Shown piece after piece: positions 36,891-63,768 of a stretch of DNA of 64,000 nt. Each line of letters begins with the position of its first letter. Position 1 is the stretch's first letter. The notes under the pieces are model-generated. The model was not told where the DNA came from. It did not search any database and saw only the letters and a list, made by a program, of their open reading frames with translations. This DNA comes from Squalus acanthias (taxonomy: Eukaryota). The position numbers and the translations under genes are program-made. The stretch covers positions 1,860,001 through 1,924,000 of the forward strand of contig CM059432.1 in the NCBI GenBank assembly GCA_030390025.1. Direction: 5' to 3'.

Positions 36891-37102
36891 CTCATGCACC
36901 GTGTTTCAGGAGTTCGAAGGATCTGGCAGTGCTAACGGGCTGTTGTGGGAATGTCTGAAGTTTCCATTCCGTCGGATGTTCCCTCAGGCGGCCCCAGCAG
37001 CACAGCTCCAACAGTCTCCTGCTTATTTCAGGTCACACATGGGGCTCGGGTAAACTTGTGACTGCAGCTGATTCTTTTACTCGGAGCAACACATTGCGTT
37101 AA

Positions 37103-38355: not shown

Positions 38356-38916
38356 GAAAGGTTAAAGGTGCCTTGGGCCTCTGCAACTTAAAACTGTGAA
38401 GCTCCGGGTAAGGCGACGGGCCGAGGTGAATCTAAAAACAGGAGACTTACAAAGGACTGCTTTGGGCAGCTAATGGAGAAAATGAGGTTAGGCTAGGAAA
38501 TATTATTAAAACTAAAAACAAGTGCTTCTAATTATATATTTCCAGCGAACAGGTGAAAAATAAAATGGTGGGGGGTCCACTGAAAGATTCCAGCTGGTAT
38601 CAAGTGGCCAAGCGATAGGATCGTACAGCACAGGAGGAGGCCATTCGGCCCATCGTGCCTGCGCCGGCTCTTTGAAAGAGCTCTCCAATTAGTCCCGCTC
38701 CCCCCGTGCTCTTTCCCCACAGCCCTGCAAATATTCTCCTTTTCATCCTATTTATCCATTTCTCCTTTTTGAAAGTTACTATTGAATCTGCTCCCACCGC
38801 CCTTTCAGGCAGCGCGTTCCAGATCACAACAACTCGCCGCGTAAAAAATGTTCTTCCTATCTTTGGAATTCTCTGCCCCAGAGGGCTGTGGGTGCTGAGT
38901 CTTTGAGTATATTCAA

Positions 38917-39005
38917 AAGTGAGAAGTCGCACAACACCAGGTTATAGTCCAACAGTTTTATTTGAAATCACAAGCTTTCGGAGCGCTGCTCCTTCGTCAG
39001 GTGAC
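38917..39005 (-). mobile_element. Short Penelope-like hammerhead-ribozyme element inserted in a CR1 3' end (host 38858-39180, +)
   Basis: TSD GTATATTCAA (38907-38916, 39006-39015); reverse complement contains TCAC-CTGACGA-A-GGAGC(agc)GCTCC-GAAA-GCTT-GTGA. Confidence 0.75.
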
Positions 39006-39889
39006 GTATATTCAAGGCTGAGATCGATAGATTTTTGGACTCTCGGGGAATCAAGGGATATGGGGATCGGGTGGGAAAGTGGAGTTGAGGTCAATGATCA
39101 GCCATGATCTTATTAAATGGCGGAGCAGGCTCGAGGGGCCGAATGGCCGACTCCTGCTCCTAATTCTTATGTTCATATGTTCCCCCTTAATTCTTTTGCT
39201 AATTACCTTCAATCTGTGTCCTCTGGTTACCGACCCTCCTGCCCATGGAAACAGTTTCTCCTTATTTACTCCATCAAAATCCCTCATGATTTTGACCGCC
39301 TCTATTAAATCTCCCCTTAATTTGCTCTGCTCAGACAAACAGAATGGAAGGTGGAGCAGGGGGGGGGGGGGGCGGTCAGAGGGGGGAATATAACTGTAGC
39401 AGGGCTTGCTGGATGTCTCCTCATTATCGTGGCCAAGCCTGACTAAACTACCATGCGGAAATTCTCAAACCTCCTCCTTCACACCGAGCGGAAGTGTGAA
39501 CGCCCCTGGCATCATTCCCGCCAACACATTAGCTTCTCAAACCGCACTGGTAATTAGCGTGAAATCTTTCACATTCTTCTTTTGATTTTGGACTGGCATT
39601 CATGAGGCAGCTACTGTCGTTCACGCTCTGGAATCTGTTCTCAGGAGGCCAGTGGTTTTTGGGCTTGTGTGCCTGTCGCTGAGCTATAGGAATACCAGGA
39701 GTCGACTCTTCCAGGATCCAAGCCAAGAGAATAATCTGCTTTCGTTAGGCAGAATTCGCAGCACAGAAACAGGCCATTCGGCCCAACCGGTCCGTGCCGG
39801 TGTTTCTGCTCCACACGAGCCTCCTCCCGCCCCTCTTCATCTCACCCCATCAACATATCCTTCCATTCCTTTCTCCTCATGTGCTGAAA

Positions 39890-41182
39890 AGAACATAAGA
39901 AAGAGGAGCAGGAGTCGGCCATTCGGCCCCTCAAGCCCACTCCGTCATTCAATAAGATCATGGCTGATCTTCTACCTCAACTCCACCTTCTTGCAAGATC
40001 CCCGTATGCCCTCATTCCCTTAGTGTCCCAAAATCTATCGATCTCTGTCTTGAATATACTCAATGACTCAGCATCCACAGCCCTCTGGGGTAGAGAATTC
40101 CAAAGATTCACAACCCTCTGAGTGAAGACATTTCTCCTCATCTCAGTCCTAAATGACCAACCCCTTATTCTGAGACTGTAACCCCTGGTTCTAGACTCTC
40201 CAGCCAGGGGAAACATCCTCCCTGCATCTACCCTGTCAATCCACTTCAGAATCTTATGGGGGAAAAATTCAGTTGGATGCGCCTCTCGTTAGCGCCTTAA
40301 GAGGGCGCTAATAGGGCGCAAAGCAACTAGCGCCCGGGCGCGGCGATGTTTGCGCCTGCTCGCGAAATTAACTACACATTTTGTGGCGGCGCTAAATACT
40401 ACCGCCACGATCTCCTGCGCCCGCAGATCGTGACGTCAGTCGAGTGCGCAACGCCCCGGTAGCGCCCCGGAGCGGATATTAAGTGGCGCCCCCTGCCTTA
40501 CCGCCTGCCGCTAGCAACGACAGGTTGAGGGGAGCGTTTTGCAGTCAGGAAGGGACTGGGGGAGCACTATTTAAAGGCGACCGCTTCCTGCCTTTTTTTG
40601 TTGGTGACATTTTTGCACCACGCATTCTGAGAGAGAGAGAGAGACTTCTGGAGAGATTCAACGTGTGTGAAGGAGTTTTGGGTACTGAGCAGCACTTTGC
40701 AGGTTCATTTTGATTTGCCCTTCCTTGCATCTATTTAGAAGAGACTGTGGGGGCTGCACTCTGAGCTCTTTCCCTGTTTCTCTCCATTGTTCTTTCCAGC
40801 AGATTTGATGTACAGGTCTCTCCAGGCCGAGATTCAAGGCTGCAATGAGCAGGATGTGGATGGAGAGCAAGATCAACCCTCCCCTTTAAGAACTGGCCGG
40901 CGCCATTGTGTCTGTGTTCCATTGCTGACTGACATCACATGAGCTTCGCCAGCGCTCTGAGGTAGCGCCTCGCTCCTCGGCCTTTGCGCCTTAAGACAGG
41001 TGTGTAGCGCCTGATTTAGCGCTCCAATCACCTCCAGGGGCGATAAAAGCCAAGTTTGCAGTCGGAGGCGATAATTAGCGGCAGGCGCTAATCTTTGTGC
41101 CCAGCCGATAATTGCGCCCCAAATGGAGCGATACTGAATTTCTCCCCCTATATGTTTCAATGAGATCACCTCTCATTCTTCA
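39890..41182 (-). mobile_element. CR1 3' fragment split by Harbinger-like MITE copy 2
   Basis: ORF 39977-40216; the sequence resumes atgtttcaatgagatcacc after the MITE. Confidence 0.8.
40258..41148 (+). mobile_element. Harbinger-like MITE, copy 2 (891 bp)
   Basis: TAT|GGGGGAAAAATTCAGT ... ACTGAATTTCTCCCCC|TAT; colinear with 9528-10417. Confidence 0.85.
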
Positions 41183-41792
41183 TTATCTAGCCTCCCCTTG
41201 AATGCATCTACGCTATTCGCCTCAACCAGTCCCTGTGGTAGCGAGTTCCACATTCTCACAACTCTCTGGGCAAAGTTCTGGGCTCCCCCACAAGGGGCAG
41301 CATCTTCTCTTACGACGAATACATGATACTAAACTGTGAAACACAGAAGAGAGAAATTTATTGTTAAACCTTCTCGATATATAATCAGGTGAGTGTCAGA
41401 CTTTCTGTATGTAACTGTCACTTTCCTGAACTCCCAACTCTTCTTCAAAGAAGTGAGTTGTGTCAGGAATCTGACACTGAGGAGTATTTTAGACAATCAG
41501 CATAAATTTTCTTTTATCTCTCTCACACGGAGATGCTTCATCATTATACTACCACCGAAAACAAAATCATTTCACCACTAATTCCCAGCAGATCCCGGCT
41601 GTTAATTCTTGATTCAGTGGAAACGCATCCATGTCGTATCTTTTGGGTAGATGGTATCAATGCATAGTGGTTAACGGTGGGGTTCTCCCTCTAACTCCCT
41701 CTGCCTCGCCACCTCCCTCTTCTGCTTTAAGACGCTCCTTAAGACCCACCTTTTTGACCAAGCTTTTGGTCATGCTATGTCTAACTGTCTTA

Positions 41793-42537
41793 GGGGGAAA
41801 AATTCGGTTGGTTAGCGCGGCGATTTTAGCGCCGCTCGCGAAATTGACCAGTTGTTTTGCGGCGGCGCTAAACACTACCGCCACGATCTTCTGCGTCCGC
41901 AGGTCGTGACGTCAGTCGAGCGTGCAACGCCCCGGTAGCGCTCCAGACCGGATATTGAGTCGCGCCCCCTGCCTTAGCGCCTGCCGCTAAGAACGACAGG
42001 TAGAGGGGATCGTTTTCAAGTCGGGAAGGGGCTGGGGGAGCGCTATTTAAAGGCGGGCGCTTCCTGCCTTTTCTTGTCGGCAAAATTTTTGGTTTTAACG
42101 CTGTCCTAAGGAGTTTTGGCCCTCAGCACCACTTTTGAGGTTCCTAAGCGCCGAGCTCTTTCCCTGGGCCTATCCATTAGTGCTTCCAACACAATTGCTT
42201 TTGAGGTCTCTCCAGGCCGAGATTCAAGGCTGCAATGAGCAGGGAGTGGCTGGCCAGCAAGATGGCCCCTCCCCTTTAAGAACTGGACGGCGGCAGTCTG
42301 TCTGGCTTCCATGGTAATGGACATCGCCTGAGCTTCAGTAGTGTTCTGAGGTAGTGCCTCGCTCCCCGACGTTTGCGCCTTAAGAGAGGTGTGTAGCGCC
42401 TGATTTAGCGCCCAAATCACCTCCAGGGGCGATAGAGGCGAATTTTGCAGTTGGAGGCGATAATTAGCGCCGGGCGCTAAACTTTGCACCCGGCCGATAT
42501 TAGCGCCCCAAAATGGGCGATACCCAATTATTCCCCC
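41793..42537 (+). mobile_element. Harbinger-like MITE, copy 3 (745 bp, different internal deletion)
   Basis: TTA|GGGGGAAAAATTCGG ... CCCAATTATTCCCCC|TTA. Confidence 0.85.
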
Positions 42538-42624
42538 TTAGTGTCCATTCTTGTTTGATCACGCCTCTTTCAACGTTTTTCTTGCATTAAGGGCGTTATA
42601 TAAATACAAGTTGTAAAAAGAAAA

Positions 42625-43080
42625 AGAAAGACTTGCATTTCTATAGCGTCTTTCACGACCACAGGACGTCCCAAAGCACTTCACAGCCAATGAAGTACTT
42701 TTTGAAGTGTAGTCACTGCTGTAATGTAGGAAACGCAGCAGCCAATTTGCGTACAGCAAGCTCCCACAAACAGCAATGTGATAATAACCAGATAATCTGT
42801 TTTAGTGATGTTGGTTGAGGGGAAAATATTTACCAGGACACCGGGGAGAACTCCCCTGCTCTTCTTCAAAATAGTGCCATGGGATCCTTTACGTCCACCT
42901 GAGGGGGCAGACGGGGCCTCAGTTTAACGTCTCATCCCAAAGACAGCACCTCTAAGACAGTGCAGCGCTCCACTGGAGTGTTGACCTTGATTTTTGTGCT
43001 CAAGTCTCTGGAGTGGGACCTGAACCCACAACCTTCTGACTCAGAGGCGAGGGTGCTGCCCACTGAGCCACAGCTGACAC
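42625..43080 (-). mobile_element. DeuSINE copy
   Basis: Head, body and tail match the other copies. Confidence 0.85.
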
Positions 43081-43167
43081 TGGCAGTTGAGGTGTGGAAT
43101 TAGCCTACTCAGGACTGTGGACTTTATGGCATAGCTTCTGGTAGCCAAATATGTAAAAATCCAATTT

Positions 43168-45215
43168 TTTTAAATTCGTTTATGGGATGTAGGCGTTACT
43201 GGCAAGGCCGGCATTTATTGCCCATCCCTAATTGCCCTTGAGAAGGTGGTGGTGAGCTGCCTTCTTGAACCGCTGCAGTCCGTGTGGTGAAGGTACTCCC
43301 ACAGTGCTGTTAGGGAGGGAGTTCCAGGATTTTGACCCAGCGACAATGAAGGATCGGCGATATACTTCCAAGTCAGGACGGATGTGTGACTTGGAGGGGA
43401 ACTTGGAGGTGGTGGTGTTCCCATGCACCTGCTGCCCTTGTCTTCTAGGGTGGTAGAGGTCGCGGGTTTGGGAGGTGCTGCCGAAGAAGCCTTGGCGAGT
43501 TGCTGCAGTGCATCTTGTAGATGGTACACACTGCAGCCACGGTACACTGGTGGTGGAGGGAGTGAATGTTTAAGGTGGTGGATGGGCTGCCAATCAAGTG
43601 GGCTGCTTTGTCCTGGATGGTGTCGAGCTTCTTGGGTGTTGTTGGAGCTGCACTCATCCAGGCAAGTGGAGCGTATTCCATCACACTCCTTACTTGTGCT
43701 TTGTAGATGGTGGAAAGGATTTGGGGAGTCACGAGGTGAGACACTCGCCACAGAATTCATAGCCTCTGACCTGTTCTTGTTGCCACAGTATTTATGTGGC
43801 TGGTCCAGTTAAGTTTCTGGTCAATGGTGACACCCAGGATGTTGATGGTGGGGGATTCGGTGATGGTAATGCCATTGAATGTCAAGGGGCGGTGGTGAGA
43901 CTCTCTCTCGTTGAAGATAGTCATTGCCTGGCACTTGCGTGGCGCGAATGTTACCTGCCACTTATCAGCCCAAGCCTGAACGTCGTCCAGGTCTTGCTGC
44001 ATGCGGGCATGGACTGCTTCATTATCTGAGGAGTTGCGAATGGAACTGAACACTGTGCAATTATCAGCGAACATCCCCACTTCTGACCTTATGATGGAGG
44101 GAAGGTCATTGATGAAGCAGCTGAAGATGGTTGGGCCTAGGACACTGCCCTGAGGAACTCCTGAGGAGATAGATATATTTCTTAAGGCTAAAGGGATCAA
44201 GGGATATGGGGAGAAAGCAGGGACAGGGTACTGAATTTGGATGATCAGCCATGATCTCATTAAATGGCGGAGCAGGCTCGAGGGGCCGAATGGCCTACTC
44301 CTGCTCCTATCTTCTATGCTTCTATGAACTCCTGCAGCGATGTCCTGGGGCTGAGATGATTGACATCCAACAACCACAACCATCTTCCTTTGTGCTAGAT
44401 ATGACTCCAGCCAGTGGAGAGTTTTCCCCCTGATTCCCATTGACTTCAATTTTACTAGGGCTCCTTGATGCCACACTCGGTCAAATGCTGCCTTGATGTC
44501 AAGGGCAGTCACTCTCACCTCTGGAATTCAGCTCCTTTGTCCATGTTTGGACCAAGGCTGTAATGAGGTCTGGAGCCGAGTGGTCTTGGCGGAACCCAAA
44601 CTGGGCATCAGTGAGCAGGTTATTGGTGACTAAGTGCTGCTTGATAGCACTGTCGATGACACCTTCCATCACTTTGCTGATGATTGAGAGTAGACTGATG
44701 GGGCGGTAATTGGCTGGATTGGATTTGTCCTGCTTTGTGTGGACAGGACATACCTGGGCAGTTTTCCACATTGTCGGATAGATGCCAGTGTTGTAGCTGT
44801 ACTGGAACAGCTTGGCTAGAGGTGTGGCTAGTTCTGGAGCACAAGTCTTCAGCACGATAGCCGGGATGTTTTCGGGGCCCACAGCCTTTGCTGTATCCAG
44901 TGTGCTCAGCTGTTTCTTGATGTCATGTGGAGTGAATCGAATTGGCTGAAGACTGGCTACTGTGATGGTGGGGACCTCAGGAGTAGGCCGATATGGATCA
45001 TCCACTCGACACATCTGGCTGAAGATGGTTGCAAATGCTTCAGCCTTGTCTTTTGCACTCACGTGCTGGGCTCCACCATCATTGAGGATGGGGATATTCC
45101 TGGAGCCTCCTCCTCCTCCCGTTAGTTGTTTAATGGTCCACCACCATTCACGACTGGATGTGGCAGGACTGCAGAGCTTTGATCTGATCCGTTGATTGTG
45201 GCATCGCTTAGCTCG
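43168..45215 (-). mobile_element. Second CR1-group (jockey-superclade) LINE family, RT region to 3' end, with a CR1 tail inserted at 44164-44325
   Basis: ORFs 44499-45062 (NYRPISLLS, QFGFR), 43757-44518 (LDIKAAFDRVWH, GVPQGSVLGP, FADN) and 43445-43744; nested insert TSD GAACTCCTG. Confidence 0.9.
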
Positions 45216-45874
45216 TTAACATTATTAAATTCTGGACCCTCGTTTAAAACTCTCCTTAAAATCTACCTCGTTGACCAGTTCTAATATCTCCTTCTGTGGC
45301 TCGGTGTCAAATTTCATTTGATAATCGCTCCTGTGAAGTGTCTTGGGACGTTTCACTATGTTAAAGGCACTGTATAAATACAAGGTGTTGTAAATTTATC
45401 TAGAAGGGAGTAGTTCTCTAACTGAGGGAACAGTTCAGTGAGAGCACACTGAATGAAATATTGCACAGTGATGTGTGAACCCTGATCTTCTACACACACA
45501 ATGACGGGTCTTTCAGCTCTTCAGTCGAGCCACTCTTGGGAGATAGTCAGTAACTCCCAACGTCCCCACACCTGAAAAGTTACTGACTCTAGTCTGTTGA
45601 AGGCACCTAGAGGCAAAAGTCTACCAGCTCTGCTAAAGCTCATTAAATCCCCCGAAAAAATGTGTATTAAAATATCGCCACATAATTAGACCCGCACAAA
45701 AGGAGTATGTGACTATATTTGATAAGTGAGGACCAGATAAAAATTCAGCAACAGGGACCTTCCTCGAGTGTGTTGAGCTCGGAGCCCAAAGCATCAAATA
45801 GGAGAGTTGCAACAGTATACAATAGCTGGGATCTAGGGATATATTTCTCTGGAATTCCCTCCCTAAACCTCTTC

Positions 45875-46184
45875 ACACACAGCAAGCTCCCACAAACAGC
45901 AATGTGATAATGACCAGCTAGTCTGTTTTAGTGATGTGGATTGAGGGATAAGACACCGGGGAGAACTTCGAAATAGTGGCCGTGGGATCTTTTACATCCA
46001 CCTGAGAGAGCAGACGGGGCCTCGGTTTAACGTCTCATCCAAAAGACGGTACCTCTGACAGTGCAGCACTCCCTCAGCACCACACTGGGAGTGTCAGCCT
46101 AGATTTATGTGCTGGAGTGGGACTTGAACCCACAATCTTCTGACTCAGAGGCAAGTCTGCTACCCACTGAGCCAGAGCTGACAC
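45875..46184 (-). mobile_element. DeuSINE copy (internally deleted)
   Basis: Matches the SINE consensus seen in the window. Confidence 0.8.
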
Positions 46185-46334
46185 AGGCCAACTAGTCCGT
46201 GCCGGTGTTTATGCTCCACACGAGCATCCTCCCACCCCTCTTCATCTCACCCCATCAACACAGCCTTTGTTTTCATTCTGGGAATGAGAAGCCTTCTGTT
46301 GTTTCCCAGTGTCCACTGAAACCTTTAGTTGCAG

Positions 46335-47357
46335 ATTATGACGGGTTTTGGTCGAGTAAATGAGGAGAAACTGTTTCCAGTGGCAGGAGGGTCGGTAACC
46401 AGAGGACACAGATTTAAGGTAATTGGCAAAAGAACCAGAGGGGGAGAGGAGGAGAATTTTTTTTATGCAGCGAGTTGTTGAATTCTGCAATGCACAGCCT
46501 GAAAGGGCGGTGGAAGCAGATTCAATTACATAGAATATACGGCACAGAAACAGGCCATTCGGCCCAACCTGTCCATGCCGGCGTTTATGCTCTTCTCGAG
46601 CCTCCTCCCGTCTTTCCTCATCTAAATCTATCAGCGTAACCCTCGATTCCCTTCTCCCTCATATGCTTGTCCAGCCTCCCCTTAAATGCATCTATACTAT
46701 TCGCCTCAACCACTCCCTGTGGTAGCGAGTTCCACATTCACACCACTCTCTGGGTAAAGAAGTTTCTTCTGAATTCCCCCATTGGATTTCTTGGTGACTA
46801 TCTTATATTGATGGCCTCTAGTTATGCTCTTCCCCACAAGTGGAAACATTCTCTCTGTATCCACTCTATCAAAATTCTTCATAATTTTAAAGACCTCTAT
46901 TAGGTCACCCCTCAGCCTTCTTTTTTCAAGAGAAAAGAGACCCAGCCTGTTCATCCTTTCATGATAGGTATACCCTCGCATTTCTGGTATCATCCTTGTA
47001 AATCTTCTCTGCACCCTCTCCAGTGCCCCGATATCCTTTTTAGAATATAACGACCAGAACTGCACGCAGTACTCGAAGTGTGGTCTAACCAAGGTTTGGT
47101 ACAGGTTTAGCATAACTTCTCTACTTTTCAATTCTATCCCTCTAGAAATAAACCCTAGTGCTTGGTTTGCTTTTTTTATGGCCTTATTAACGTGCGTTGC
47201 TACTTTAGCAACATTGAAAAGGGAATTGGATAAATACTTGAAAAGGAAAATATTTGCAGGAATGTGGGGAAAGAGCGGGGGGAGTGGGACTAATTGGAGA
47301 GCTCTTTCAAAGAGCCGGCACAGGCACGATGGGCCGAATGGCCTCCTTCTGTGCTGC
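46335..47357. mobile_element. CR1 (+) fragment with a nested CR1 (-) 3' fragment at about 46527-47212
   Basis: ORF 46706-47407 KKANQALGFISRG...LEKRRLRGDLIEVF. Confidence 0.85.
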
Positions 47358-48375
47358 ATCCCATTAGATATTAAAAACTTACAAAAATGTTTTTTAAACA
47401 CAGCCAACGGTGGGAATAATTCAGTCTCAAATGGTTAACATAATAGTACCTCATTTTACTAAAGATAATGCAGCTGTGAACAGCAATTTCTGTTTCAAAT
47501 TTCGTGCTAAAAAGCAGAAATGACAATGCAGGGGAATAGAACAAGTTGTCTTTTTGCAATGCAGTAACAACATTAAGCACTGCTTTTACGAGCATTGAGC
47601 ATTCCCTGGGTGACAGCACTACAGTAATGCTCCAGGATAGGAATATTGGAGGGCCTCTATAGTCTTACCCTTAAGTATTCGTCTGAGAAAGGCACCCAAG
47701 TGTGTAACAAACGTAGAAGACATGGTTAAAAAAAAAAAGCACAATTTAAATAGTGAGCGACGACGCTCACGATAGGCCAGGGACAGAAACTAGGATCAGA
47801 CTGGCCGGTTTGGAGCTACGGATCAGGAAAGAAAGACTTGCATTTCTATAGCGCCTTTCACGACCACCGGACGTCCCAAAGCGCTTTACAGCCAATGAAG
47901 TACTTTTTGAAGTGTAGTCGTTGTTGTAATGTAGGAAACACGGCAGCCAATTTGTGCACAGCAAGCTGAGGAGGCCGTTCAGCTCATCGAGCTTGTTCCA
48001 CCATTCGATTAGATCATGGCTCATCTGTATCTTAGCTCCATCCACCTGCCTTGGTTCCATAACCCTATTACCCTTACCCAACAAAAATCTATCAATCTCA
48101 GTTTTGACATTTTCAATTGACACCCCCCCCCCCCCACCCCTACCCTCAACAGCTTTTTGGGGGAGAGAGTTCCAGATTTCCACTACCCACCTATCTGGTC
48201 AATATCTCAATGCTGTTTGTGGGACCTTGCTGTGCGCAAAAAGCATTTCAAGTGATGTAACTTGACTTACAGTTCAATAGTTACATATGAACGTAAGAAT
48301 TCTCTCCGTCCCATCCCATATTTTGGCAGGCGTTCATAATCCTGATCACAATGGACCAGATTTTGCTGTCAAAAT

Positions 48376-51826: not shown

Positions 51827-52172
51827 TTGTATAGGATATATACTTAAGACTAAACATTTTATTGGGCATCTGTAGTCATTTTTATGATACATTAGTATGT
51901 GTCCTACAGAACTTGGAAATCTACGTTATGTCATTCAGGCTAATGTCCATAACAAAATGCTTAAAGATGCAGATCTTTAAGAAACTTTGGGGGTGAAATT
52001 CCAGGATACATAGTCCCTGGCTGGAGGAGTTAATGGAATGCTAGCCTTTATATCTAGATGGCTAGAATATAAATGGATTGGAAGTTTTGCTACAGCTACA
52101 CAAAGCCCTGGTTAGACCTGGAGCACTGTGTACAGTTCTGGGAACCGCACCTTCGAAAGGATATATTGGCCT

Positions 52173-53709
52173 CCCTGCTGTCTGCCACAGGGAACGCCAT
52201 CGCAAGAATCCTCCTCAATCGCCTTCTCCCAGTGGCTGAAGAGCTCCTCCCAGATTCGCAATGTGGATTCCGTCCACTAAGGGGCACAATGGACATGATC
52301 TTCACCGCGCGTCAACTACAAGAGAAATGCAGAGAACAGCACCAACTGCTGTACATGGTCTTCTTTGATCTCACAAAGGCCTTCGACACCGTCAACCATG
52401 AGGGATTATGGAGTGTCCTCCGCAAATTCGGCTGGCCTCAAAAGTTTGTCACCATCCTCCGCCTGCTTCACGACAACATGCAAGCCATGATCCTGACCAA
52501 CGGATCCACCACAGACCCAATTCACGTACGGTCCGGGGTCAAGCAAGGATGTGTCATTGCACCAACGCTCTTCTCGATCTTCCTGGCTGCAATGCTCCAT
52601 CTCACCCTCAGTAAGCGCCCCGCTGGAGTGGAGCTAATCTACAGAACAAACGGGAAACTGTTCAACCTCCGTCGCTTCCAGTCCAGATCCAAGGTCGTCC
52701 CATCCTCTGTCATCGAATTACAGTATGCAGACGACGCTTGCGTCTGCGTACAATCTGAGGCCGAACTCCAAACCATCGTCAACACCTTCACTGAAACGTA
52801 CGAGAGCATGGGCCTTACACTAAACATCCGTAAGACAAAGGTCCTCTACCAACCTGCCACCGCCACACAGTATTGCTCCCCGATTATTAAAATCTACGAC
52901 GAGGCCTTGGACAACGTGGACCACTTTCCATACCTCGGGAGCCTACTGTCAACAAGGGCAGACGTCAATGACAAAGTCCAACACCGCCTTCAGTGTGCCA
53001 GTGCAGCCTTCGGTCGCCTGAGGAAGAGAGTGTTTGAAGACCAGGACCTCAAACCCGGCACTAAGCTCATGGTCTACAAAGCAGTAGTGATACCCGCCCT
53101 CCTGTATGCCTCAGAGACATGGACCATGTACAGCAGGCACCTCAAAGCACTGGAGAGGTACCACCAACGCAGCCTCCACAAGATCCTGCAAATCCATTGG
53201 CAGGATAGGTGCACCAACGTCAGTGTTCTCGCTCAGGCCAACATCCCCAGCATCAAAGCTTTGACCACGCTCGATCAGCTCCGATGGACGGGTCACATTG
53301 TCCGCATGCCCGATACGAGACTCCCAAAACAAGCGCTCTACTCGGAGCTCCGACACGGCAAGAGAGCCCTAGGTGGACAGAGGAAACGCTTCAAGGACAC
53401 CCTCAAAGCCTCCTTGAAAAAGTGCAACATCCCCACTGACACCTGGGAATCCCTGGCCCAAGACCACACAAAGGAAGGCGCCGAACACCTCGAGTCTCTT
53501 CACTGGAAGCAAGCGGAAGCCAAGCGCAAACAGCGGAAGGAGCGCACGTCAACCCAAGCACCCCACCCACCCGCCCCTTCAACCACCGTCTGCCCCACCT
53601 GTGACAGAGACTGTAGGTCCCGCATTGGACTCATCAGTCACCTGAGAACTCATTTTTAGTGTGGAAGCAAGTCATCCTCGGTTCCGAGGGACTGCCTAAG
53701 ACGACGAAG
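52173..53709 (+). mobile_element. RTE-clade (BovB-like) LINE, 5'-truncated, with an open RT ORF, inserted in a CR1 fragment (52030-54212)
   Basis: ORF to 53659: SQCGFR, RQLQEKCREQ, DLTKAFDTV, GVKQGCVIAPTLF, YADD, C-terminal C2H2 finger; TSD ATATTGGCCT (52163-52172, 53710-53719). Confidence 0.95.
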
Positions 53710-54396
53710 ATATTGGCCTTGGAAGGAGTGCAGCGCAGATTCACCAGAATGTTACCCCGGCCCCAAGAGTTAGATTATGAGGAGAGATTACATAAACTAG
53801 GCTTGTATTCTGTGGAATATAGAAGGTTAAGGAGCAATTTGATTGCGTTTTTTAGGATTTGGAAAGGAATGGGTAGGGTAGAGAGAGTGAGAGAAACTTG
53901 TTCTGCTGGTGGGGGAGTCCAGGACAAGAGGACATCACCTTAAAATCAGAGCCTGGCCATTCAGGAGAGAAGTTAAGAAACACTTCTTCACGCAAAGGGT
54001 GGTAGGAGTGAGGAACTCTCACCCACAAAGAGCAGTAGATGCTGGGGCTCAATTTATAATTTTAAATCTGAGATCGATAGATGTTTGCTCGACAAGAGTT
54101 TAACGGAATATGGAGCCAAGGCGGGTGGATGGAGTTAGGATACAGATTAGCCATGATGTCACTGAATGGCGGAACAGGCTCGAGGGGCTGAATGGCCTCC
54201 TCCTGTTCCTGTGAGTGGTGGGAGTTGGGAGTCCTGGTTGCCTGTAGCCATGGATGCTCAACGCCTTGTCCCAAACCCTGGACTGAGTAACATGCTCGGG
54301 GTGAGTACTGTCAGGCCTGCAAGGGAACACCACTGGTGCCCACCTTCATCTGCCAGCAAGAAAAGCGAAGCGTCTCCTGTATAGAAGTCATTCTTC

Positions 54397-54845
54397 AGTG
54401 TCAGCCGTGGCTCAGTGGGCAGCACTCTCACCTTGGAGTCAGTAACTCATGGGTTCAGAGTCCCACTCCAGAGGATTAAGCACATAAGCTAGGCTGACAC
54501 ACCAGTGCCAGTACTGAGGGAGTGCTGCACTGTTGGAGGTGGCGTCTTTCAGATGAGACGTTAAACTGATGCCCCGTCTGCTCTCTCAGGTGGATGTAAA
54601 AGATCACATGGCCACTATTTCGAAGAAGAGCAGGGGAGTTCTCCCCGGTGTCCTGGCAAATAGTTATCCCTCAATCAACATCACTAAAACAGATTATCTG
54701 GTTGTGGGAGCTTGCTGTGCGCAAACTGGCGTGCCACGTTTCCTACATTACAACAGTGACTACACTTCAAAAAGTACTTCATTGGCTGTAAAGCGCTTTG
54801 GGACGTCCTGAGGTTGCAAAGGGTGAAATATAAATGCAAGTCTTT
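54397..54845 (+). mobile_element. DeuSINE copy
   Basis: Head, body and tail match. Confidence 0.85.
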
Positions 54846-54974
54846 TTTTTTTATAGAAAGATGAAAGTCCCCTTTCCATCTGGCAATATCTGGGGCTTTT
54901 TTCCCAACTCCCAGTGGGGCGCACCAGTGCTGCTGAACCCCCTTTATGGGCGAAATTCTCAGGAACCTCTTTTT

Positions 54975-55530
54975 TTATTCATTCACGGGATGTGGGCATC
55001 GCTGGCAAGGCCAGCATTTATTGCCCATCCCCTAGTTGCCCTTGAGAAGGTGGTGGTGAGCCGCCTTCTTGAACCGCTGCAGTCCGTGTGGTGAAGGTGC
55101 TCCCACAGTGCTGTTAGGGAGGGAGTTCCAGGATTCTGACCCAGCGACGATGAAGGAACGGACGAGATTTTCCAAGTCAGGATGGTGTGTGACTTGGAGG
55201 GGAACTTGGAGGTGGTGGTGTTCCCATGCGCCTGCTGCCCTTGTCCTTCTAGGTGGTAGAGGTCGCGGGTTTGGGAGGTGCTGCCGAAGAAGCCTTGGCG
55301 AGTTGCTGCAGTGCATCTTGTAGATGGTACACACTGTAGCCACGGTGCGCCGGTGGTGGAGGGAGTGAATGTTTAAGGTGGTGGATGGGGTGCCAATCAA
55401 ACGGTCTGTTTGGTCCTGGATGGTGTCGAGCTTCTTGAGTGTTGTTGGAGCTGCACTCATCCAGGCAAGTGGAGAGTATTCCATCACACTCCTTACTTGT
55501 GCCTTGTAGATGGTGGAAAGGTTTTGGGGA
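54975..55530 (-). mobile_element. 3' fragment of the second CR1-group LINE family
   Basis: ORF 55032-55487, similar to 43168-43730. Confidence 0.85.
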
Positions 55531-55704
55531 AGAGGTGGAACCTCTTTGAAGACCTGTCAATGGCCCTCTCCTATTGGAAAATAGCTGGAACTAAAATTTG
55601 GACAAGACGAGGGACAACCTCGCTCCACATCAGTTGCAATTTTGCCCTGTCCAAAAGTTCAGGTTGTTAATATTGAAAAACATCTCTTTATACAAGAGCT
55701 TTAC

Positions 55705-57932
55705 TAGATTGAGGAGATTTACCAGAATGGTAGCAGGGATGAGGGACTTCAGTTATTTGGAGAGACTAGAGAAGCTGGGATCGTTCTCCTTAGAGCAGAG
55801 AAGGCTATGGGGACATTTAATAGAGATGTTCAAAATTATGAAGGGTTTTGATAGAGTAAATAAGGAGAAATTGTTTCCACTGGCAGAAGGGTTGGTAACC
55901 AGAGGACACAGATTTAAGGTAATTGGCAAAAGAACCATAGGAGAGATGAAGAGAATTTTTTTTACGCAGTGAGTTGTGATCTGGAACGCGCTGCCTGAAG
56001 GGTCGGTGGAAGCAGATTCAATAGTAACTTTCAAAAGGGAATTGGATAAATACTTGAGAAGGAAAAAAATTTGCAGGGCTGTGGGGAAAGAGCAGGGGGA
56101 GCGGGACAAATTGGCTAGCTCTATCAAAGAGCCGGCACAGGCACGATGGGCATTATATTGGCCAAGAGCTATAATAAGAGCAGAGATACATCCGTCAAAT
56201 AAATGATTGTTTTTGGTTTCAAGCATGCAATAAACATTGGGCTGTCTCTCTGTTACTGTGGCGCCCTAGCTGTAGGCCCTGCATCTTGCGAGCACAGTTC
56301 GCGGTTGATATTATGGGCTACTTACTGTCGGATCATAGGAACAGGAGGAGGCCATTCAGCCCCTCGAGCCTGTTCTGCCATTCAATTAGATCATGGCTGA
56401 TCCATACCTCAACTTCATTTACCCACCTTGGTTCCGTAACCCTTAATACCCTTACCCAACAAAAATCTATTAATCTCGGGTTTGAAATTTTCAATTGACC
56501 CCCCAGCCTCAACAGCTGTTTGGGGGGAGAGAGTTCCAGATTTCCACTACCCTTTGTGTGAAGAAGTGCTTCCTGTCATCACCCCTGAACAGCGTGGCTC
56601 TAATTTTAAGGTTCTGCCCCCTTGTCCTGGACTGAGGAAATAGTTTTGCTCTATCTACCCTATCAACTCCTTTAATCATCTTAATGATCTTAAACACCTC
56701 AGTTCGATCACCCCTAATCTTCTATACTCGAGGGAATACAAGCCTAGTCTACCCCAGAGGGCTGTGGAGGCTCAGTCATTGGGTATATTCAAGACAGAAG
56801 TCGATAGATTTCTGACTAGTGAAGGACATCAAGGGATATGGCGATAGGGCCGGTGAATGGAGTGGAGGCAGAAGATCAGTCATGATCTCATTGAATGGCG
56901 GCGCAGGCTCGAAGGGCCGAATGGCCGACTCCTGCTCCTATTTCTTATGTTCTTATGCAACCTGTCCTCATAATTTAACCCTTTTATCCCCGGTATCATT
57001 CTGGTGAATCTGCGCTGCACCCCCTCCAAGGCCGATATCTCCTTCCCGAGGTGCGGGGCCCAGAACTGAGCACAGTTACTCCGGATGGGGTCTGAGCAGA
57101 GCTGTAACTGCAGTGCAGTCTACACTCTCCCTCCCTCTTCCACGCTGTGGTGGAACGGAAGAACGATCCTCCCTGCCCGCTCTCCGCAAAGACTAATTTG
57201 CCACCCAAACATCTGCAAAGTCAGAGGACGTGTGGGTCACTTTATTGGTAGTTCACTTCCGTTAGCATCGAACTCCCCAAATGCTAGTTGCTTTTTTTTT
57301 AAAAATAGAGAAGCAGATGGTTCCCCTGCCCAGAACCATCACTACATGTGATCAACCACATTTAATAAATGGATGCTAACACAGTCAAACTGGTTTGATT
57401 TGTTCAAGGCCGAGGGGTGACCTAATAGATGTCTTATGAAGGGGTTCGATAGGGTAGACGAAGAGAAGATGTTTCCAGTTTTTGGGGGAGTCCAAAACTA
57501 GGGGCCATAAATACACGATAGTCACTAATAATTCCAGCCCATTGAGTCGCTAAAGGCACAATGGGCTGGCTGACCTCCTTCTGTGCTGTACCATTGTGGA
57601 TACAGAGAGAATGTTTCCACTTGTGGGGAAGAGCATAACTAGAGGCCATCAATATAAGATAGTCACCAAGAAATCAGATAGGCAATTCGGAAGAAACTTC
57701 TTTACCCAGAGAGTGGTGAGAATGTGGAACTCGCTCCCACAGGGAGTGGTTGAGGCGAATAGTATAGATGCATTTAAGGGGAAGCTAGATAAGCACATGA
57801 GGGAGAAAGGAATAGAAGGATATGCTGATAGGGTGAGATGGAGTAGGGTGGGAGGAGACTCGAGTGGGGCATAAACACCGCCACAGACCAGTTGGGCCGA
57901 ATGGCCTGTTTCCGTGCTATAAAATTCCATGT
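55705..57932. mobile_element. Cluster of CR1 3' fragments (55705-56150 +; 56333-57112 - with nested 56750-56957 +; 57411-57530 +; 57596-57932 +)
   Basis: CR1 RT C-terminal motifs in ORFs 55598-55972, 56509-56697 and 57596-57874. Confidence 0.8.
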
Positions 57933-58087
57933 AAAACTCACCTTATTAGACACTGAATACAATTCAGAAATACTCCTGTCCTAGATCTGTGCACATTTTC
58001 CAGTAGTGAATCTACCAGAAATGGCTATGGATTATCTCAATCACCTAAAATATAGTTTGTGGAGTTTATAATATAGTTTACAATATA

Positions 58088-58522
58088 GTGTCGGCTGTGG
58101 CTCAGTGGGTAGCACTCTCTCCTCTGAGTCAGAAGGTTGTGGGTTCATGTCCCGCTCCAGGGACTTGAGTACAAAAATCCAGGCTGACACTCCCAGTGCA
58201 GTGCCGAGGGAAATGCTGCACTGTCGGAGGTGCCGTCTTTCGGATGAGACATTAAACCGAGGCCCCGTCTGCCCTCTCAAGTGGATGTAAAAGATCCCAC
58301 GGTGCTATTCTGAAGAAGAGCAGCAGGCAGTCCCTGGCCAATATTTAGCCCTTAATCAACATCACTAAAACAGATTATCTGGTCATTATCACATTGCTGA
58401 TTGTGGGAGCTTGCTGTGCGCAAATTGGCTGCTGCGTTTCAAAAATTACTTCATTAGTTGTAAAGCGCTTTGGGACGTCCTGAGGTCATGAAAGATGCTG
58501 TAGAAATGCAAGTCTTTCTTTC
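58088..58522 (+). mobile_element. DeuSINE copy
   Basis: Head, body and tail match. Confidence 0.85.
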
Positions 58523-58547
58523 CTATAAAGCCCCCTCCTCTTGTCAT

Positions 58548-58990
58548 TCACATAGAATGGTTACAGCACGGAAGGAGGCCATTCGGCCCGTCGAGCCCGT
58601 GCCGGCTCTCTGCAAGAACACTTCAGCCAGTCCCACTCCCCCGCCCTTTCCCCGTAGCCCTGCCAATTTTTTTCCTTCAGGTACTTATCCAACTCCCTTC
58701 TGAAAGCCACAATTGAGTCTGCCTCCACCACCCTTTCAGGCAGCGCATTCCAGATCATAACCACTCGCTGCGTAAAAAAGTTTTTCCTCATGTCGCCTTT
58801 GGTTCTTTTGCCAATCACCTTAAATCTGTATCCTCTGGTTCTCGACCCTTCCGCCAATGGGAACAGTTTCTCTCTATCTACTCTGTCCAGACCCCTCATG
58901 ATTTTGAACACCTCCATCAAATCTCCTCTCAACCTGCTCTGCTCCAAGGAGAACAACCCCAGCTTCTCCAGTCTATCCACGTAACTGAAG
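58548..58990 (-). mobile_element. CR1 LINE 3' fragment
   Basis: ORF 58561-58980. Confidence 0.88.
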
Positions 58991-59754
58991 TGTGAAACTG
59001 AAGATTCTGACTCTTTCTAGCCATTCTTCACAACTTAGTCCTCTGGCACTTAGAGCCAAGCTCACCACCCTTGTTGCACTGTCTGTAAATGTTTCCCGAA
59101 TGCCTTGGCGACCAGAACTGAACACATTGCTCAAGGTGGTGGCCATACCACAAAACTGCAGAGTTGCAGCTAGACAGCCTCAGACTTGTATTCTCCTGAT
59201 AGGACAATATAGCTCAGCATTCTGTAAGCTTTATTGATTAGCACTCCGCAATGACTTGACACGCTAAATGTACTGCCATGCACAGATCTTTTCTGCTCTC
59301 TCCTCCAGCTGGTTCAGCACCAATCACTGAGTAATTGCTCCGCCCCATTCTTTCTCCCAATGTGTGATACTTGGAACTGATTTGCATTGAAGGTTTTCTG
59401 GGTCCTTTATACTGCAGCTTGGGTCTAGACGCTTGTAATAGTTCATTTTCAGCGCCAGAGAGGTTGATTGGCAGTCACTAACACTTATCACGTCGTTAAA
59501 AGGGGTACTTACGCTTTTGATGAGGAGACTTAACTTCTTGCGGCAAGTATAGTTCGTAGCTATCGGGCGAATACGGCGGCTCCACGCCACTCGATGGTGA
59601 GCCAGACAGCGAGACGCCGTTTTTCCCAAAGCTCGGACAGCGACCTTTGGATTTCTGCATTTAACCGCGCATCTCTGCCCCTCGTCTAAAGCTGCTGTAC
59701 CGTTTGCGCATAAATAACGGCGAGCGCCATTCGCCTCACCTCATTGAAACATAC

Positions 59755-60739
59755 AAGATTCTGAGGGGGATTGAAGATTCTGAGGGGATTGAAGATTCTG
59801 AGGGGGATTGAAGAGTCTGAGGGGGATTAAAGATTCTGAGGGGGAGTGAAGATTCTGAGGGGGAGTGAAGAGTCTGAGGGGGATTGAAGATTCTGAGGGG
59901 ATTGAAGATTCTGAGGGGGATTGAAGAGTCTGAGGGAGATTGAAGATTCTGAGGGGGATTGAAGATTCTGAGGGAGATTGAAGATTCTGAGGGGGATTGA
60001 AGATTCTGAGGGGGATTGAAGATTCTGAGGGGGATTGAAGAGTCTGAGGGGGATTGAAGATTCTGAGGGGGATTGAAGATTCTGAGGGGGATTGAAGAGT
60101 CTGAGGGGGATTGAAGAGTCTGAGGGGGATTGAAGATTCTGAGGGGATTGAAGATTCTGAGGGGAGTGAAGATTCTGAGGGGGATTGAAGATTCTGAGGG
60201 GGATTGAAGATTCTGAGGGGGAGTGAAGATTCTGAGGGGGATTGAAGATTCTGAGGGGGAGTGAAGATTCTGAGGGGGATTGAAGATTCTGAGGGGGAGT
60301 GAAGATTCTGAGGGGGATTGAAGATTCTGAGGGGGATTGAAGAGTCTGAGGGGGATTGAAGAGTCTGAGGGGGATTGAAGATTCTGAGGGGGATTGAAGA
60401 GTCTGAGGGGGATTGAAGATTCTGAGGGGGATTGAAGATTCTGAGGGGGATTGAAGATTCTGAGGAGGATTGAAGATTCTGAGGAGGATTGAAGATTCTG
60501 AGGGGGATTGAAGATTCTGAGGGGGAGTGAAGAGTCTGAGGGGGATTGAAAATTCTGAGGAGGATTAAAGATTCTGAGGGGGATTGAAGATTCTGAGGGG
60601 GATTGAAGATTTTGAGGGGGAGTGAAGAGTCTGAGGGGGATTGAAGATTCTGAGGGGGAGTGAAGATTCTGAGGGGGAGTGAAGAGTCTGAGGGGGATTG
60701 AAGAGTCTGAGGGGGATTGAAGAGTCTGAGGGGGATTGA
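59755..60739 (+). repeat. 19-bp minisatellite (about 52 copies) expanded inside a CR1 3' fragment (59736-61700)
   Basis: Unit AAGATTCTGAGGGGGATTG, lying between ...gaaacatac and ...acagggtagatgctgagagg of CR1. Confidence 0.95.
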
Positions 60740-60839
60740 CAGGGTAGATGCTGAGAGGTTGTTTCCACTGGCTGGAGAGTCTAGAACTAGGGGGCATAGT
60801 CTCAGGATAAGTGGTCGGCCATTTAAGACCGAGATGAGG

Positions 60840-61443
60840 TATTGAGTACAAAAGTAGAGAAGTTATGCTGAACCTTTATAAAGCGCTGGTTAGGCCACAA
60901 CTGGAGTATTGCGTCCAGTTCTGGTCACCACACTTTTGGAAGGATGTGAAGGCCCTTGAGAGGGTGCAGAGGAGATTTACCAGAATGGTTCCGGGGATGG
61001 GGGATCTGAGCTGCAAGGACAGGTTGGAGAAGCTGGATTTGTTTTCATTAGAGCAAAGGATGTTGAGGGGTGATTTGATAGAGGTGTACAAGATTATGAC
61101 GGGTTTGGATAGGCTAGATGGGGAAAGGCTGTCCCCACTTGTTAATGGTAGGACTAGGGGACACAGATTTAAGGTTTTGGGCAAGAGATACAGGGGGGAT
61201 GTGAGGAAAAACTTTTTTACGCAGCGAGTGGTGAGGACCTGGAACTCGCTGCCGACGGAAGTGGTGGAAGTGGAGACACTCAATGTTTTCAAGGGGAGAC
61301 TGGATAGGCACTTGAGGGAAATAAACTTGCAGGGCTACGGGGATAGAGCGGGGGAATGGGACTGACTGGATTGCTCGACACAGAGCCGGCACGGACTCGA
61401 TGTGCCAAATGGCCTCCTTCTGTGCCGTTATGACTCTACGACT
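60840..61443 (+). mobile_element. CR1 3' fragment nested in another CR1
   Basis: ORF 60865-61365; TSD ATGAGG (60834-60839, 61444-61449). Confidence 0.88.
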
Positions 61444-62169
61444 ATGAGGAGGAATTTCTTCACTCAGAGGGTTGTGAACCTTTGGAATTCTCTATCCCAG
61501 AGGGCTGTGAATGCTGAGTCATTGAGTATATTCAAAGCTGAGATAGATAGATTTTTGGACTCTAGGGGAATCAAGGGATATGGAGATCAGGCGGGAAAGT
61601 GAAATTGAGGTTGATGATCAGCCATGATCTTATTGATTGGCGGAGCAGGCTCGAGGGGCCGTATGGCCGACTCCTGCTCCCAATTCTTATTTTCTTATAT
61701 TAATTTGACAGCAAAATCTGGCCCATTGTGATCAGGATTATGAACGCCTGCCAAAATGTGGGATGGGACGGAGAGAATTTCTCCTCCCGATCTTTAAACA
61801 AAAGTAGTACAGTACCGGCTGCAATTTTCAAGTTGGTTCCACGACTTATTTGCCCCATAGATTATATCAATTCACACGCGTGAAGCCAAGTGTCATTAGC
61901 AAGACCGTCGGGGCAATACATCACCTCTATCGCTCTCAAATTCAGCCAGTGTTACTGCTCTAGTGAAAGCAGCCACGCGCGAGAGTAGAGGCCACTCAAA
62001 ATGCCATTGCTAATTCCGCGCAGAAAGACAAATTCACAATTACAGAAAGTAAATAGATGAAGCAAAATAATGCACGATGGGATTGGCCATTAACGAGTGG
62101 ACTAGATCGCGTCCTGTAACAGTGCTTGAAGACAAAAATCCCGAGCGAGGGAAATTTAAAAAAAAATTA

Positions 62170-62507
62170 GGGCAGATAGAGAGAAACTATTTCCTCTGGT
62201 GGGGGGAGTCCAGAACAAAGGGGGCAGAACCTTAAAATTAGAGCCAGGCCATTCAGGGGTGATGTCAGGAAGCACTTCTTCACACAAAGGGTAGTGGAAA
62301 TCTGGAACTCTGGCCCACAAAAAGCTGTTGAGGCTGGGGGTCAACTGAAAATGTCAAAACTGAGATCGATAGATTTTTGTTGGGTAAGGGTATTAAGGGT
62401 TACGGAACCAAGGCGGGTAGATGGAGCTAAGATACAGGTCAGCCATGATCTCATTGAATGGCGGAACAGGCTCGAGGGGCTGAATGGCCTCCTCCTGCTC
62501 CTATGTT
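62170..62507 (+). mobile_element. CR1 LINE 3' fragment
   Basis: Same family as 22262-22695. Confidence 0.8.
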
Positions 62508-62867
62508 CCGACCCTCTTTGAAATTGAATCACTAAGGAGCAATGCTCTGAATGTGAACAGAACTATCCCATGCAAGAAATAAACCCGATTACAACGTATG
62601 GATAGAAGTCCTTAATTTCCTTCAATTCCTGAGAAGGGAAGTCGATAATATTCTAATCTACTTTCAGATCCCAAACAGTCTAATCTATTTTATTTATAGT
62701 TCAACTGACACACTGGTCAATTCGTCCTTTTTTTTAAAAGATCAATTTGAGAATCTAAATCATTCTATAAACGTTATGACCATTTTCTGGAGAATAAAGC
62801 CAAGGTTTAGTGACCATTTGCAGTAACTTGGCCAGACAATCACACACACAAAATAGAGGCTGGAACC

Positions 62868-63768
62868 TCTTTCGGATGAGACGTTAAACCGAGGCCCCGT
62901 CTGCCCTCTCAGGTGGACGCAAAAGATCCCACGGCCACTATTTCGAAGAAGAGCAGGGGGAGTTCTCCCCGGTGTCCTGGCCAATATTTATCCCGAAACC
63001 ACTGTCACGAAAATAAGATTATCTGGTCACTGTCTCAATGCTGTTTGTGGGAGCTTGCTGAGTGCAATTTGGCTGCCACGTTTCCGACATTAGAGCATAA
63101 GAATTAGGAGCAGGAGTCGGCCACACGGCCCCTCGAGCCTGCTCCGCCATTCAATAAGATCATGGCTGATCTTCGACCTCAACTCCACTTTCCTGCACAT
63201 ACCCCTTGATTCCCTTAGTAACCAAAAATCTATCGATCTCTGTCTTGAATATACTCGGTTATAGTCCAACAGCTTTATTTGAAATCACAAGCTTTCGGAG
63301 CGCTGCTCCTTCACCTGACGAAGGAGCAGCGCTCCGAAAGCTTGTGATTTCAAATAAAGCTGTTGGACTATAACCTGGTGTTGTGCGACTTCTCACATTT
63401 GTCCACCCCAGTCCAACACCGGCATCTCCACATCTTGAATATACTCAACGACTGAGCCTCCACAGCCCTCTGGGGCAGAGAATTCCAAAGATTCACCACC
63501 CTCTGAGTGAAGAAATTTCTCCTCATCTCAGTCTTAAATGGCCGACCCCTTATCCTGAGACTGTGACCCCTGGTTCTAGACTCCCCAGCCAGGGGAAACA
63601 TCCTCCCTGCATCTACCCTGTCAAGCCCTCTCAGAATTTTGTATGTTTCAATGAGAGTTTCAATTACAACAGCGATTACACCTCAAAACTAAAATACTTC
63701 ATTGGCTGTAAAAGCCCTTTGGGACGTCCTGAGGTGGTGAAAGGCGCTATAGAAAGGCAAGTTCCTTC
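62868..63768. mobile_element. DeuSINE (+) split by a CR1 (-) 3' fragment (about 63095-63655), which is itself split by a hammerhead element
   Basis: SINE body 62868-63090 resumes attacaacagcgattacac at about 63663; ORF 63368-63601. Confidence 0.8.
63257..63432 (+). mobile_element. Penelope-like hammerhead-ribozyme element with a 5' inverted duplication
   Basis: 14-bp TSD TCTTGAATATACTC (63243-63256, 63433-63446); HHR core CTGACGA 63315-63321 ... GAAA 63336-63339; perfect 56-bp inverted repeat. Confidence 0.8.

What the first reader, a model, noticed from the sequence alone, without database searches (positions are those of the whole stretch)
38907..63446. A tiny hammerhead-ribozyme retroelement inserted twice at the same site in CR1 LINE 3' ends
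Seen: two copies of one short non-coding element (38917-39005, 89 bp; 63257-63432, 176 bp). Both sit in the CR1 3' motif GAGTATATTCAAG with the ribozyme strand antisense to the CR1. They have different ends and different TSDs (10 bp GTATATTCAA vs 14 bp TCTTGAATATACTC), which argues for independent insertions rather than one duplicated chimera. Known: minimal type-I hammerheads occur in Penelope-like element terminal repeats, and their GIY-YIG endonucleases can show sequence preference. Inference: a non-autonomous ribozyme-bearing element that preferentially targets another retrotransposon, a possible site-specific hyperparasite. n=2 only.
Basis: partly seen in the sequence, partly recalled or inferred. 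Interest (0 to 1): 0.72.

Follow-up and report, generated by a model that had tools for sequence, protein, structure and literature searches.

The report
Penelope stubs at a CR1 hotspot
Two cut-off ends of a very common ribozyme-bearing jumping gene sit at the same 14-letter, nearly mirror-symmetric spot of another jumping gene; that spot is a real hotspot but takes only roughly 1 in 100 of these ends, so it is likely a favoured cut sequence rather than the target of a specialised parasite.

Summary
Both inserts, their duplications and the hammerhead motif are real. The two insertions are independent and share one first junction, after the near-palindrome TTGAGTATATTCAA in the last codons of a CR1-like ORF2. 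They are not a stand-alone mini-element.

Public contigs give a rough genome-wide picture. In organism A, 9 of 10 listed element-to-host junction contigs hit this site within a 97-bp host stretch. Yet only about 0.6-0.8% of element-end depth runs into it (tail-less junction only; about 0.1% in organism L), and the listed tail-less loose ends are diverse AT-rich DNA. That is about 100-fold or more above uniform and above AT-richness alone (at most 15-fold), but a 5-letter motif could explain it. An amplified chimera is refuted.

Verdict: a real, non-exclusive hotspot; 'site-specific hyperparasite' is not supported. No autonomous partner was found. This scan noted the same pattern several times on other DNA of this genome.

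The parts
38917..39004 (-). Copy 1: pseudo-LTR stub of a Penelope-like element, without tail; 3' junction shares 3 letters (38914-38916) with the target; 39005 is a 1-nt filler
38968..39004 (-). Minimal type-I hammerhead motif, copy 1 (4-bp stem I, core at 39000-38994, extra A, 5-bp stem II, GAAA, palindromic AGCT, U at position 17)
   Evidence: descriptor from PMC4209133
38907..38916 (+). Copy 1 target-site duplication, left copy (10 bp); right copy 39006-39015
38903..38916 (+). Target 14-mer TTGAGTATATTCAA, 12 of 14 positions palindromic; first junction after its last base
38859..39180 (+). Host 1: short 3' fragment of a CR1-like LINE (ORF2 end, 3' hairpin, 8-mer repeat), interrupted by copy 1
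63257..63312 (-). Copy 2: inverted 5' arm (duplicate of 63320-63375; lacks the CUGANGA core); junction shares 2-4 letters with the direct part
63311..63400 (+). Copy 2: direct pseudo-LTR stub with intact minimal hammerhead motif (core 63315-63321, predicted cut after 63343)
63401..63434 (+). Copy 2: 34-nt A/C-rich tail (74% A+C), present at one end only; other copies continue with ATG
63243..63256 (+). Copy 2 target-site duplication (14 bp, or 12 bp if 63433-63434 count as element); other copy 63433-63446
63435..63448 (-). Target 14-mer TTGAGTATATTCAA of host 2
63087..63656 (-). Host 2: 3' fragment of a CR1-like LINE, interrupted by copy 2

Best explanation
The two inserts are independent, 5'-truncated terminal stubs of a high-copy Penelope-like retroelement, and they share one site because the element's endonuclease likely favours a short AT-rich, probably symmetric DNA sequence that the abundant CR1-like LINE carries in its last codons. 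Steps: (1) Inferred: the protein of a full-length family member nicks the host sense strand after TTGAGTATATTCAA. (2) Shown by the junctions, mechanism inferred: copying starts inside the RNA at one of two places about 35 nt apart, the pLTR end (copy 1, with 3 letters of primer-template match) or the tail end (copy 2). (3) Inferred: the other strand is nicked 10-14 nt away. In copy 1 it is joined to the truncated cDNA; in copy 2 it primes a second cDNA, and the two meet at a 2-4 letter match to give the inverted arm. (4) Shown, roughly: the site takes about 1% of element ends, so it is a hotspot and most copies land elsewhere. The hammerhead likely rides along and does not set the ends.
For: Layout matches published EN+ PLE insertions: inverted 5'-truncated pLTR, one-sided 30-40 bp tail, variable TSD. 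The long end lies 89-97 nt after the hammerhead cut site in an A/C-rich stretch; in PAc the cut is 26 nt and the RT start 111-118 nt into the ORF, i.e. 85-92 nt apart. PAc cuts and extends both strands and is predicted to be a dimer. Other copies continue beyond both ends (loose ends behind 63434; behind 39004). Hotspot: 9 of 10 listed element-to-host joint contigs in organism A at the site, in several element variants. Not exclusive: flank/element depth 0.57-0.82% in A and 0.08-0.11% in L; 72, 46 and 20 contigs with long, diverse loose ends before 38915, and 84 and 111 behind 63434. Enrichment about 96-128 fold against the window's own site density; AT-richness alone allows at most 15-fold, a TTCAA pentamer up to about 520-fold (246 of 128000). 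The site ranks first by palindrome score then AT content among 1879 14-mers of the longest sense host copy (tied at 12/14 with 2 others) and first in 5 of 5 shorter host stretches.
Against: No RT or GIY-YIG ORF could be linked to these ends, so the enzyme is assumed. The symmetric part is post hoc: in the 97-bp stretch laid, the site is also the most AT-rich 14-mer, and 22 of 488 14-mers in the host 3' 500 bp are as AT-rich. Neither duplication equals the 14-bp palindrome exactly (10 bp; 12 bp or an offset 14 bp). Both window copies face the same way, and the calls could not see the opposite orientation. In two other long host copies the site is not top-ranked because they carry variant sites. 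Depth ratios from fragmented contigs are not copy numbers and may understate the site's share several-fold; tail-type junctions at the site were not measured. Organisms K and L show 0 listed joints at the site.
Confidence: 0.72

Rival explanations
1. A subfamily of this element is a dedicated, site-specific parasite of the CR1-like LINE, hidden among many dispersed copies of its relatives.
For: 9 of 10 listed host joints in organism A at one site; site use about 6-8 times higher in A than in L; 2 of 2 copies in the window; earlier scan notes report similar pairs (unchecked).
Against: Joints at the site come from several element variants (table 5c), and the window copies differ at 2 of 91 positions, both common variants. 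About 99% of end depth does not use the tail-less junction at this site. L's lower figure may reflect its changed end sequence (table 3). A 0.7-2% fill rate already predicts about 1-12 such windows among 1163.
Confidence: 0.1
2. There is no real recognition motif: AT-rich nicking plus 3-letter primer-template pairing, and neutral survival inside a repeat, make the hotspot.
For: PAc prefers AT-rich DNA and ATT in vitro; the site is the most AT-rich 14-mer of the stretch laid; copy 1 and the deepest joint (63398 to 63435) have a 3-letter match; loose-end consensus agreement is only about 0.4.
Against: AT-richness caps at 15-fold and ATT at about 50-fold against about 100-fold or more; copy 2 uses the same site from the tail end without that 3-letter match; many tail-less ends lack the match (loose ends before 38915).
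Confidence: 0.12
3. The inserts are copies of a short non-autonomous element or retrozyme with its own defined ends, moved in trans.
For: Both copies begin just upstream of the hammerhead; no ORF found; non-autonomous PLE-derived retrozymes are reported in a chondrichthyan genome.
Against: The two copies have different ends, one is rearranged, neither is tandem, and other copies continue on both sides.
Confidence: 0.08
4. One old insertion was amplified together with its CR1 host or by segmental duplication.
For: Several joints share the same 3' register, one with depth about ten times single-copy level.
Against: Different ends and duplications; hosts 90.2% alike versus inserts 97.8% (Fisher p = 0.03); filled hosts form one group in 0% of 200 bootstrap trees; copy 1's 5' junction has 2.6-3.8% of the 3' junction's depth in A.
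Confidence: 0.03

Closest known systems
PAc, Poseidon-type PLE of Anolis carolinensis (Frangieh et al. 2024, PMC11167929; parts 1-2 of 4 of the text read; supplements not seen)
   Same: Hammerhead in the pLTR; two internal RT start sites that define a 30-40 nt tail; distal start about 85-92 nt after the ribozyme cut in A/C-rich RNA; both strands cut and extended; AT-rich target.
   Different: No reading frame is open through the pLTR here; PAc's reported preference is only ATT/AT-rich, with no symmetric motif or hotspot in another element; copy 1 has a 3-letter primer-template match, whereas PAc starts without homology.
EN+ PLE insertion layout (Craig et al. 2021, PMC8557442; Arkhipova et al. 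2013, PMC3846280; passages read)
   Same: Strong 5' truncation, adjacent inverted truncated pLTR, tail at one end only, variable TSD (8-10 bp in Adineta), occasional insertion into other retroelements.
   Different: Described target biases are microsatellites (Neptune, Naiad, Chlamys), simple AT-rich DNA, or one 28S rDNA site (EN-minus PLE-X); none is a single coding position of a LINE. Clade (Neptune or Poseidon) not determined here.
Minimal hammerheads of metazoan PLEs (Cervera and de la Pena 2014, PMC4209133; parts 1-2 of 4 read)
   Same: Short stem I, extra base between 9 and 10.1, G10.1-C11.1 pair, palindromic 15.2-16.2; most copies dispersed as single motifs of truncated PLEs.
   Different: Stem II is 5 bp; the window copies have U at position 17, while about 29% of depth in organism A has C. 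Activity untested.
Nested-TE hotspots (Levy et al. 2010, PMC2836564; abstract and section 13 read)
   Same: Most TE families insert at sharp positions within other TEs without being specialised on them.
   Different: Human Alu, L1, LTR and hAT elements; no PLE in the parts read.
Target-specific retroelements (Tx1-type, R2, PLE-X; Tx1's targeting of other transposons is recalled; PLE-X)
   Same: Repeated use of one position in a multicopy sequence.
   Different: Those place most copies at the target (recalled); here about 1% of ends do.

Membership tests
EN+ Penelope-like element | pLTR with minimal type-I hammerhead | tested here: met
   against the descriptor
EN+ Penelope-like element | Inverted 5'-truncated pLTR and one-sided 30-40 bp tail | tested here: met
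   copy 2: 56-bp inverted arm, 34-nt tail (definition)
EN+ Penelope-like element | Variable-length TSD | tested here: met
   10 bp and 12 or 14 bp
EN+ Penelope-like element | Single ORF with telomerase-like RT and GIY-YIG EN linked to this pLTR | tested here: inconclusive
   no such ORF was recognised among the window's 47 ORFs (only 3 were scanned); two peptide searches from the stubs found nothing; collection scans empty; no genome held
EN+ Penelope-like element | Clade by RT phylogeny (Neptune, Poseidon, other) | not testable with these tools
   no RT sequence of the family obtained
Hammerhead ribozyme | Self-cleavage | not testable with these tools
   core intact by sequence; the fold forms only in the isolated 51-mer (z = -1.7), not in the whole stubs; Rfam 0 hits
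Non-LTR retrozyme | Tandem units each with a hammerhead | tested here: not met
   single or inverted copies only in the window (definition)
Target-specific retroelement | Most copies at one target site | tested here: not met
   about 0.6-0.8% (A) and 0.1% (L) of end depth, tail-less junction; diverse flanks otherwise
CR1 LINE (host) | RT-encoding ORF2 followed by 3' hairpin and 8-bp microsatellite | tested here: met
   PF00078 E 1e-29 in paralogue 10752-12560; hairpin forms though z only -1.0 to -1.3; 8-mer repeat at the end, one letter different from the avian octamer
CR1 LINE (host) | Placement in the CR1 clade by RT phylogeny | not tested
   no reference sequences at hand; the labels CR1, HER1 and shark are recalled or come from earlier scan notes

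The most novel reading that the evidence does not exclude
A young subfamily of this Penelope-like element in organism A's lineage has become a site-selective parasite of CR1. A dimer of its protein reads the symmetric 14-mer, cuts both strands, primes from both ends and disrupts the end of CR1's ORF2, while older relatives account for the dispersed majority. The milder form, a symmetric in-vivo target code without CR1 specialisation, is more likely (about 0.4).
Probability: 0.1. Interest if true: 0.65.

Novelty: new variant of a known kind. Interest (0 to 1): 0.33.

Why it matters
How Penelope-like elements choose and cut their target is barely known: the one full-length protein studied in vitro shows only an AT-rich/ATT preference. 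A hotspot of about 100-fold or more at a near-palindrome, in a family with on the order of 10,000 copies, makes the target code and the two-cut, two-primer model testable from an assembly alone. The element type, its layout and nested hotspots in general are already described, and the hyperparasite reading fails, so the value is mechanistic and modest. I found no paper describing a PLE hotspot in CR1 (searches; open-access library only, supplements not read).

Tried and rejected
Whole-genome test: no genome held, so no target logo could be built. Rfam: 0 hits. Exact-pattern scans for more copies: 0 in metagenome contigs, genome contigs and viral contigs. Partner protein: two searches with short frames over the stubs scored nothing at E 10 or below (2 and 56 candidates); weak evidence. 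Earlier findings by sequence: none. Loose-end consensus strings (agreement about 0.4) show a few junction-near letters that resemble the site, but they mix tail variants with flanks, so I did not count them as evidence. Binomial p-values for the joints overstate the case because X1 and X6 are one species and may share loci. Of 22 listed runs 4 were laid and 3 of these again. The tables showed 15 of 17 joints and 24 of 866 loose-end rows, and 18 of 225 loose-end rows. Hammerhead cleavage as the source of the ends was rejected: no end of either copy maps to the predicted cut (63343, 38972).
Full report
Observation. Both inserts are at the stated coordinates. Copy 1 (38917-39005) lies between two copies of GTATATTCAA. 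Copy 2 (63257-63432) lies between two copies of a 14-mer. Their shared 91 bp are 97.8% identical, and the window holds no other member of the family. The hammerhead core pattern matches twice against 0.03 expected. It fits the minimal hammerhead of metazoan Penelope-like elements (PLEs): short stem I, extra base after position 9, G10.1-C11.1, palindromic AGCT. Rfam has no hit, and the fold appears only in the isolated motif, so activity is not shown.

In copy 2, 63257-63312 is an inverted duplicate of 63320-63375, and 63401-63434 is a 34-nt A/C-rich extension absent from copy 1. An inverted truncated pLTR plus a one-sided 30-40 bp tail is the published layout of endonuclease-bearing PLE insertions (PMC8557442 and PMC3846280, passages). 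In the Anolis element PAc the tail is the stretch between two internal RT start sites, and the distal start lies 85-92 nt after the ribozyme cut (PMC11167929). Here the long end lies 89-97 nt after the predicted cut.

Extent of the family. The stretch is held by 22 listed runs from 12 studies, 20 of them with at least half of its words. In the runs laid, other copies continue past both ends: behind 63434 the loose ends begin with ATG, and behind 39004 they share a continuation in all three runs. The inserts are thus terminal stubs of a longer, high-copy element; depth suggests on the order of 10,000 copies, which is my rough inference. No ORF could be linked, so autonomy and clade stay open.

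Host. The host is an RT-encoding LINE that ends in a hairpin and an 8-mer repeat, the 3' structure described for CR1 (PMC8665684, passages). The labels CR1 clade and shark are recalled or come from earlier notes. The site is in the last ORF2 codons. Because two letters of the 14-bp duplication also belong to the element, both first junctions can be placed after the same base, the end of TTGAGTATATTCAA. This 14-mer is palindromic at 12 of 14 positions. It ranks first by symmetry then AT content among 1879 14-mers of the longest sense copy (two others tie at 12/14) and in 5 of 5 shorter host stretches, but not in two other long copies that carry variant sites. The window has 8 exact copies, 2 filled.

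Independence. The hosts are 90.2% alike, each is closer to empty copies, and they form one group in 0% of 200 bootstrap trees. The inserts are less diverged than their hosts (p = 0.03). Copy 1's 5' junction carries 2.6-3.8% of the depth of the 3' junction in organism A. One amplified chimera is rejected.

Is the site preferred? No genome was held, so I used contigs of public runs. On 63314-63530, 15 of 17 joints were listed. Ten contigs in organism A join element to host: 7 go directly to 63435, 2 go to 63504 (with a variant of the site as the intervening letters where these were shown, X6), and 1 goes elsewhere. Organisms K and L have none at the site; one contig in L joins 3 nt outside a second near-palindrome. 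X1 and X6 are one species and may be the window's source, so they are not independent of it or of each other.

Is it exclusive? On 38899-39017, depth in the host flank relative to matched element-edge bins is 0.67 and 0.82% (X6), 0.57 and 0.59% (X1), and 0.11 and 0.08% (X17). The listed loose ends at the 3' junctions are long and diverse: 72, 46 and 20 contigs before 38915, and 84 and 111 behind 63434, agreement 0.37-0.41. These ratios are rough. Contig depth is not copy number, less fragmented junctions are undercounted, and tail-type junctions at the site are not included. Even a several-fold correction leaves most ends elsewhere. Against the window's own high site density the enrichment is about 96-128 fold. 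AT-richness allows at most 15-fold, ATT about 50-fold and a TTCAA pentamer about 520-fold. A motif is therefore needed, but the numbers do not require the palindrome. With 0.7-2% of host sites filled, 2 of 8 has P of about 0.001-0.01, or about 1-12 windows among the 1163 with notes in this genome. The window is an expected tail case.

Mechanism. Most likely a PLE protein nicks after the 14-mer and starts copying inside its RNA, at the pLTR end (copy 1, 3-letter primer-template match) or at the tail end (copy 2). It nicks the other strand 10-14 nt away and either joins there (copy 1) or primes a second cDNA that meets the first at a 2-4 letter match (copy 2). The junctions are shown; the enzyme and the order of steps are inferred from PAc, which cuts and extends both strands and is predicted to dimerise. 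Symmetric reading fits a dimer and the double-ended copy, but it is post hoc. In the stretch laid the site is also the most AT-rich 14-mer, neither duplication equals the palindrome exactly, and the opposite orientation could not be seen. No end maps to the ribozyme cut, in line with PAc, where ribozyme mutants still insert.

Comparison and novelty. The element type, layout and ribozyme are known. Sharp hotspots of one TE inside another are common in the human genome without specialisation (PMC2836564, abstract and section 13). Described PLE biases are AT-rich DNA, microsatellites and one 28S site. Seven searches showed no paper on a PLE hotspot in CR1 or a symmetric PLE target; subscription papers, Repbase and supplements were not seen. 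Earlier notes of this scan report the same pattern on other DNA of this genome and suggested the symmetric-site idea; I tested it here as described and count the notes as leads only. Verdict: real, independent insertions at a real but non-exclusive hotspot; new variant of a known kind; interest 0.33.

Noticed in passing
window about 2010-2117, + strand (core 2021-2027): A third minimal hammerhead motif of a different sequence family follows a truncated LINE fragment; it is not at the hotspot and has no clear duplication. Probably a stub of a second PLE family.
   Followed up: partly
window 38972 and 63343: Both copies have U at hammerhead position 17; about 29% of depth in organism A has C there, and none in organism L.
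   Followed up: partly
window 63509-63522 (paralogues 27858, 8324): A second near-palindrome in the host ORF2 (14 of 14 at 27858); one organism L contig of depth 415 joins the element 3 nt outside it, in the opposite orientation.
   Followed up: partly
one search run list: The 123-bp stub is held with 67-100% of its words by runs labelled as 13 different organisms, so the family is nearly unchanged across many species.
   Followed up: no
window about 22980-24210, 25750-26280, 37060-38270 and 59740-60875: Long tandem arrays that give open frames on both strands; they look like satellite-type repeats.
   Followed up: no
window 52073-53659, - strand 43215-45215: Further RT-bearing LINE fragments: a 528-codon frame with PF00078 and an interrupted second one, of other families than the host.
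   Followed up: no
window 63390-63417: A pyrimidine-rich run followed by AG just upstream of the ATG that follows the tail in other copies; could be a 3' splice site, as introns are known in PLE pLTRs. Untested.
   Followed up: no
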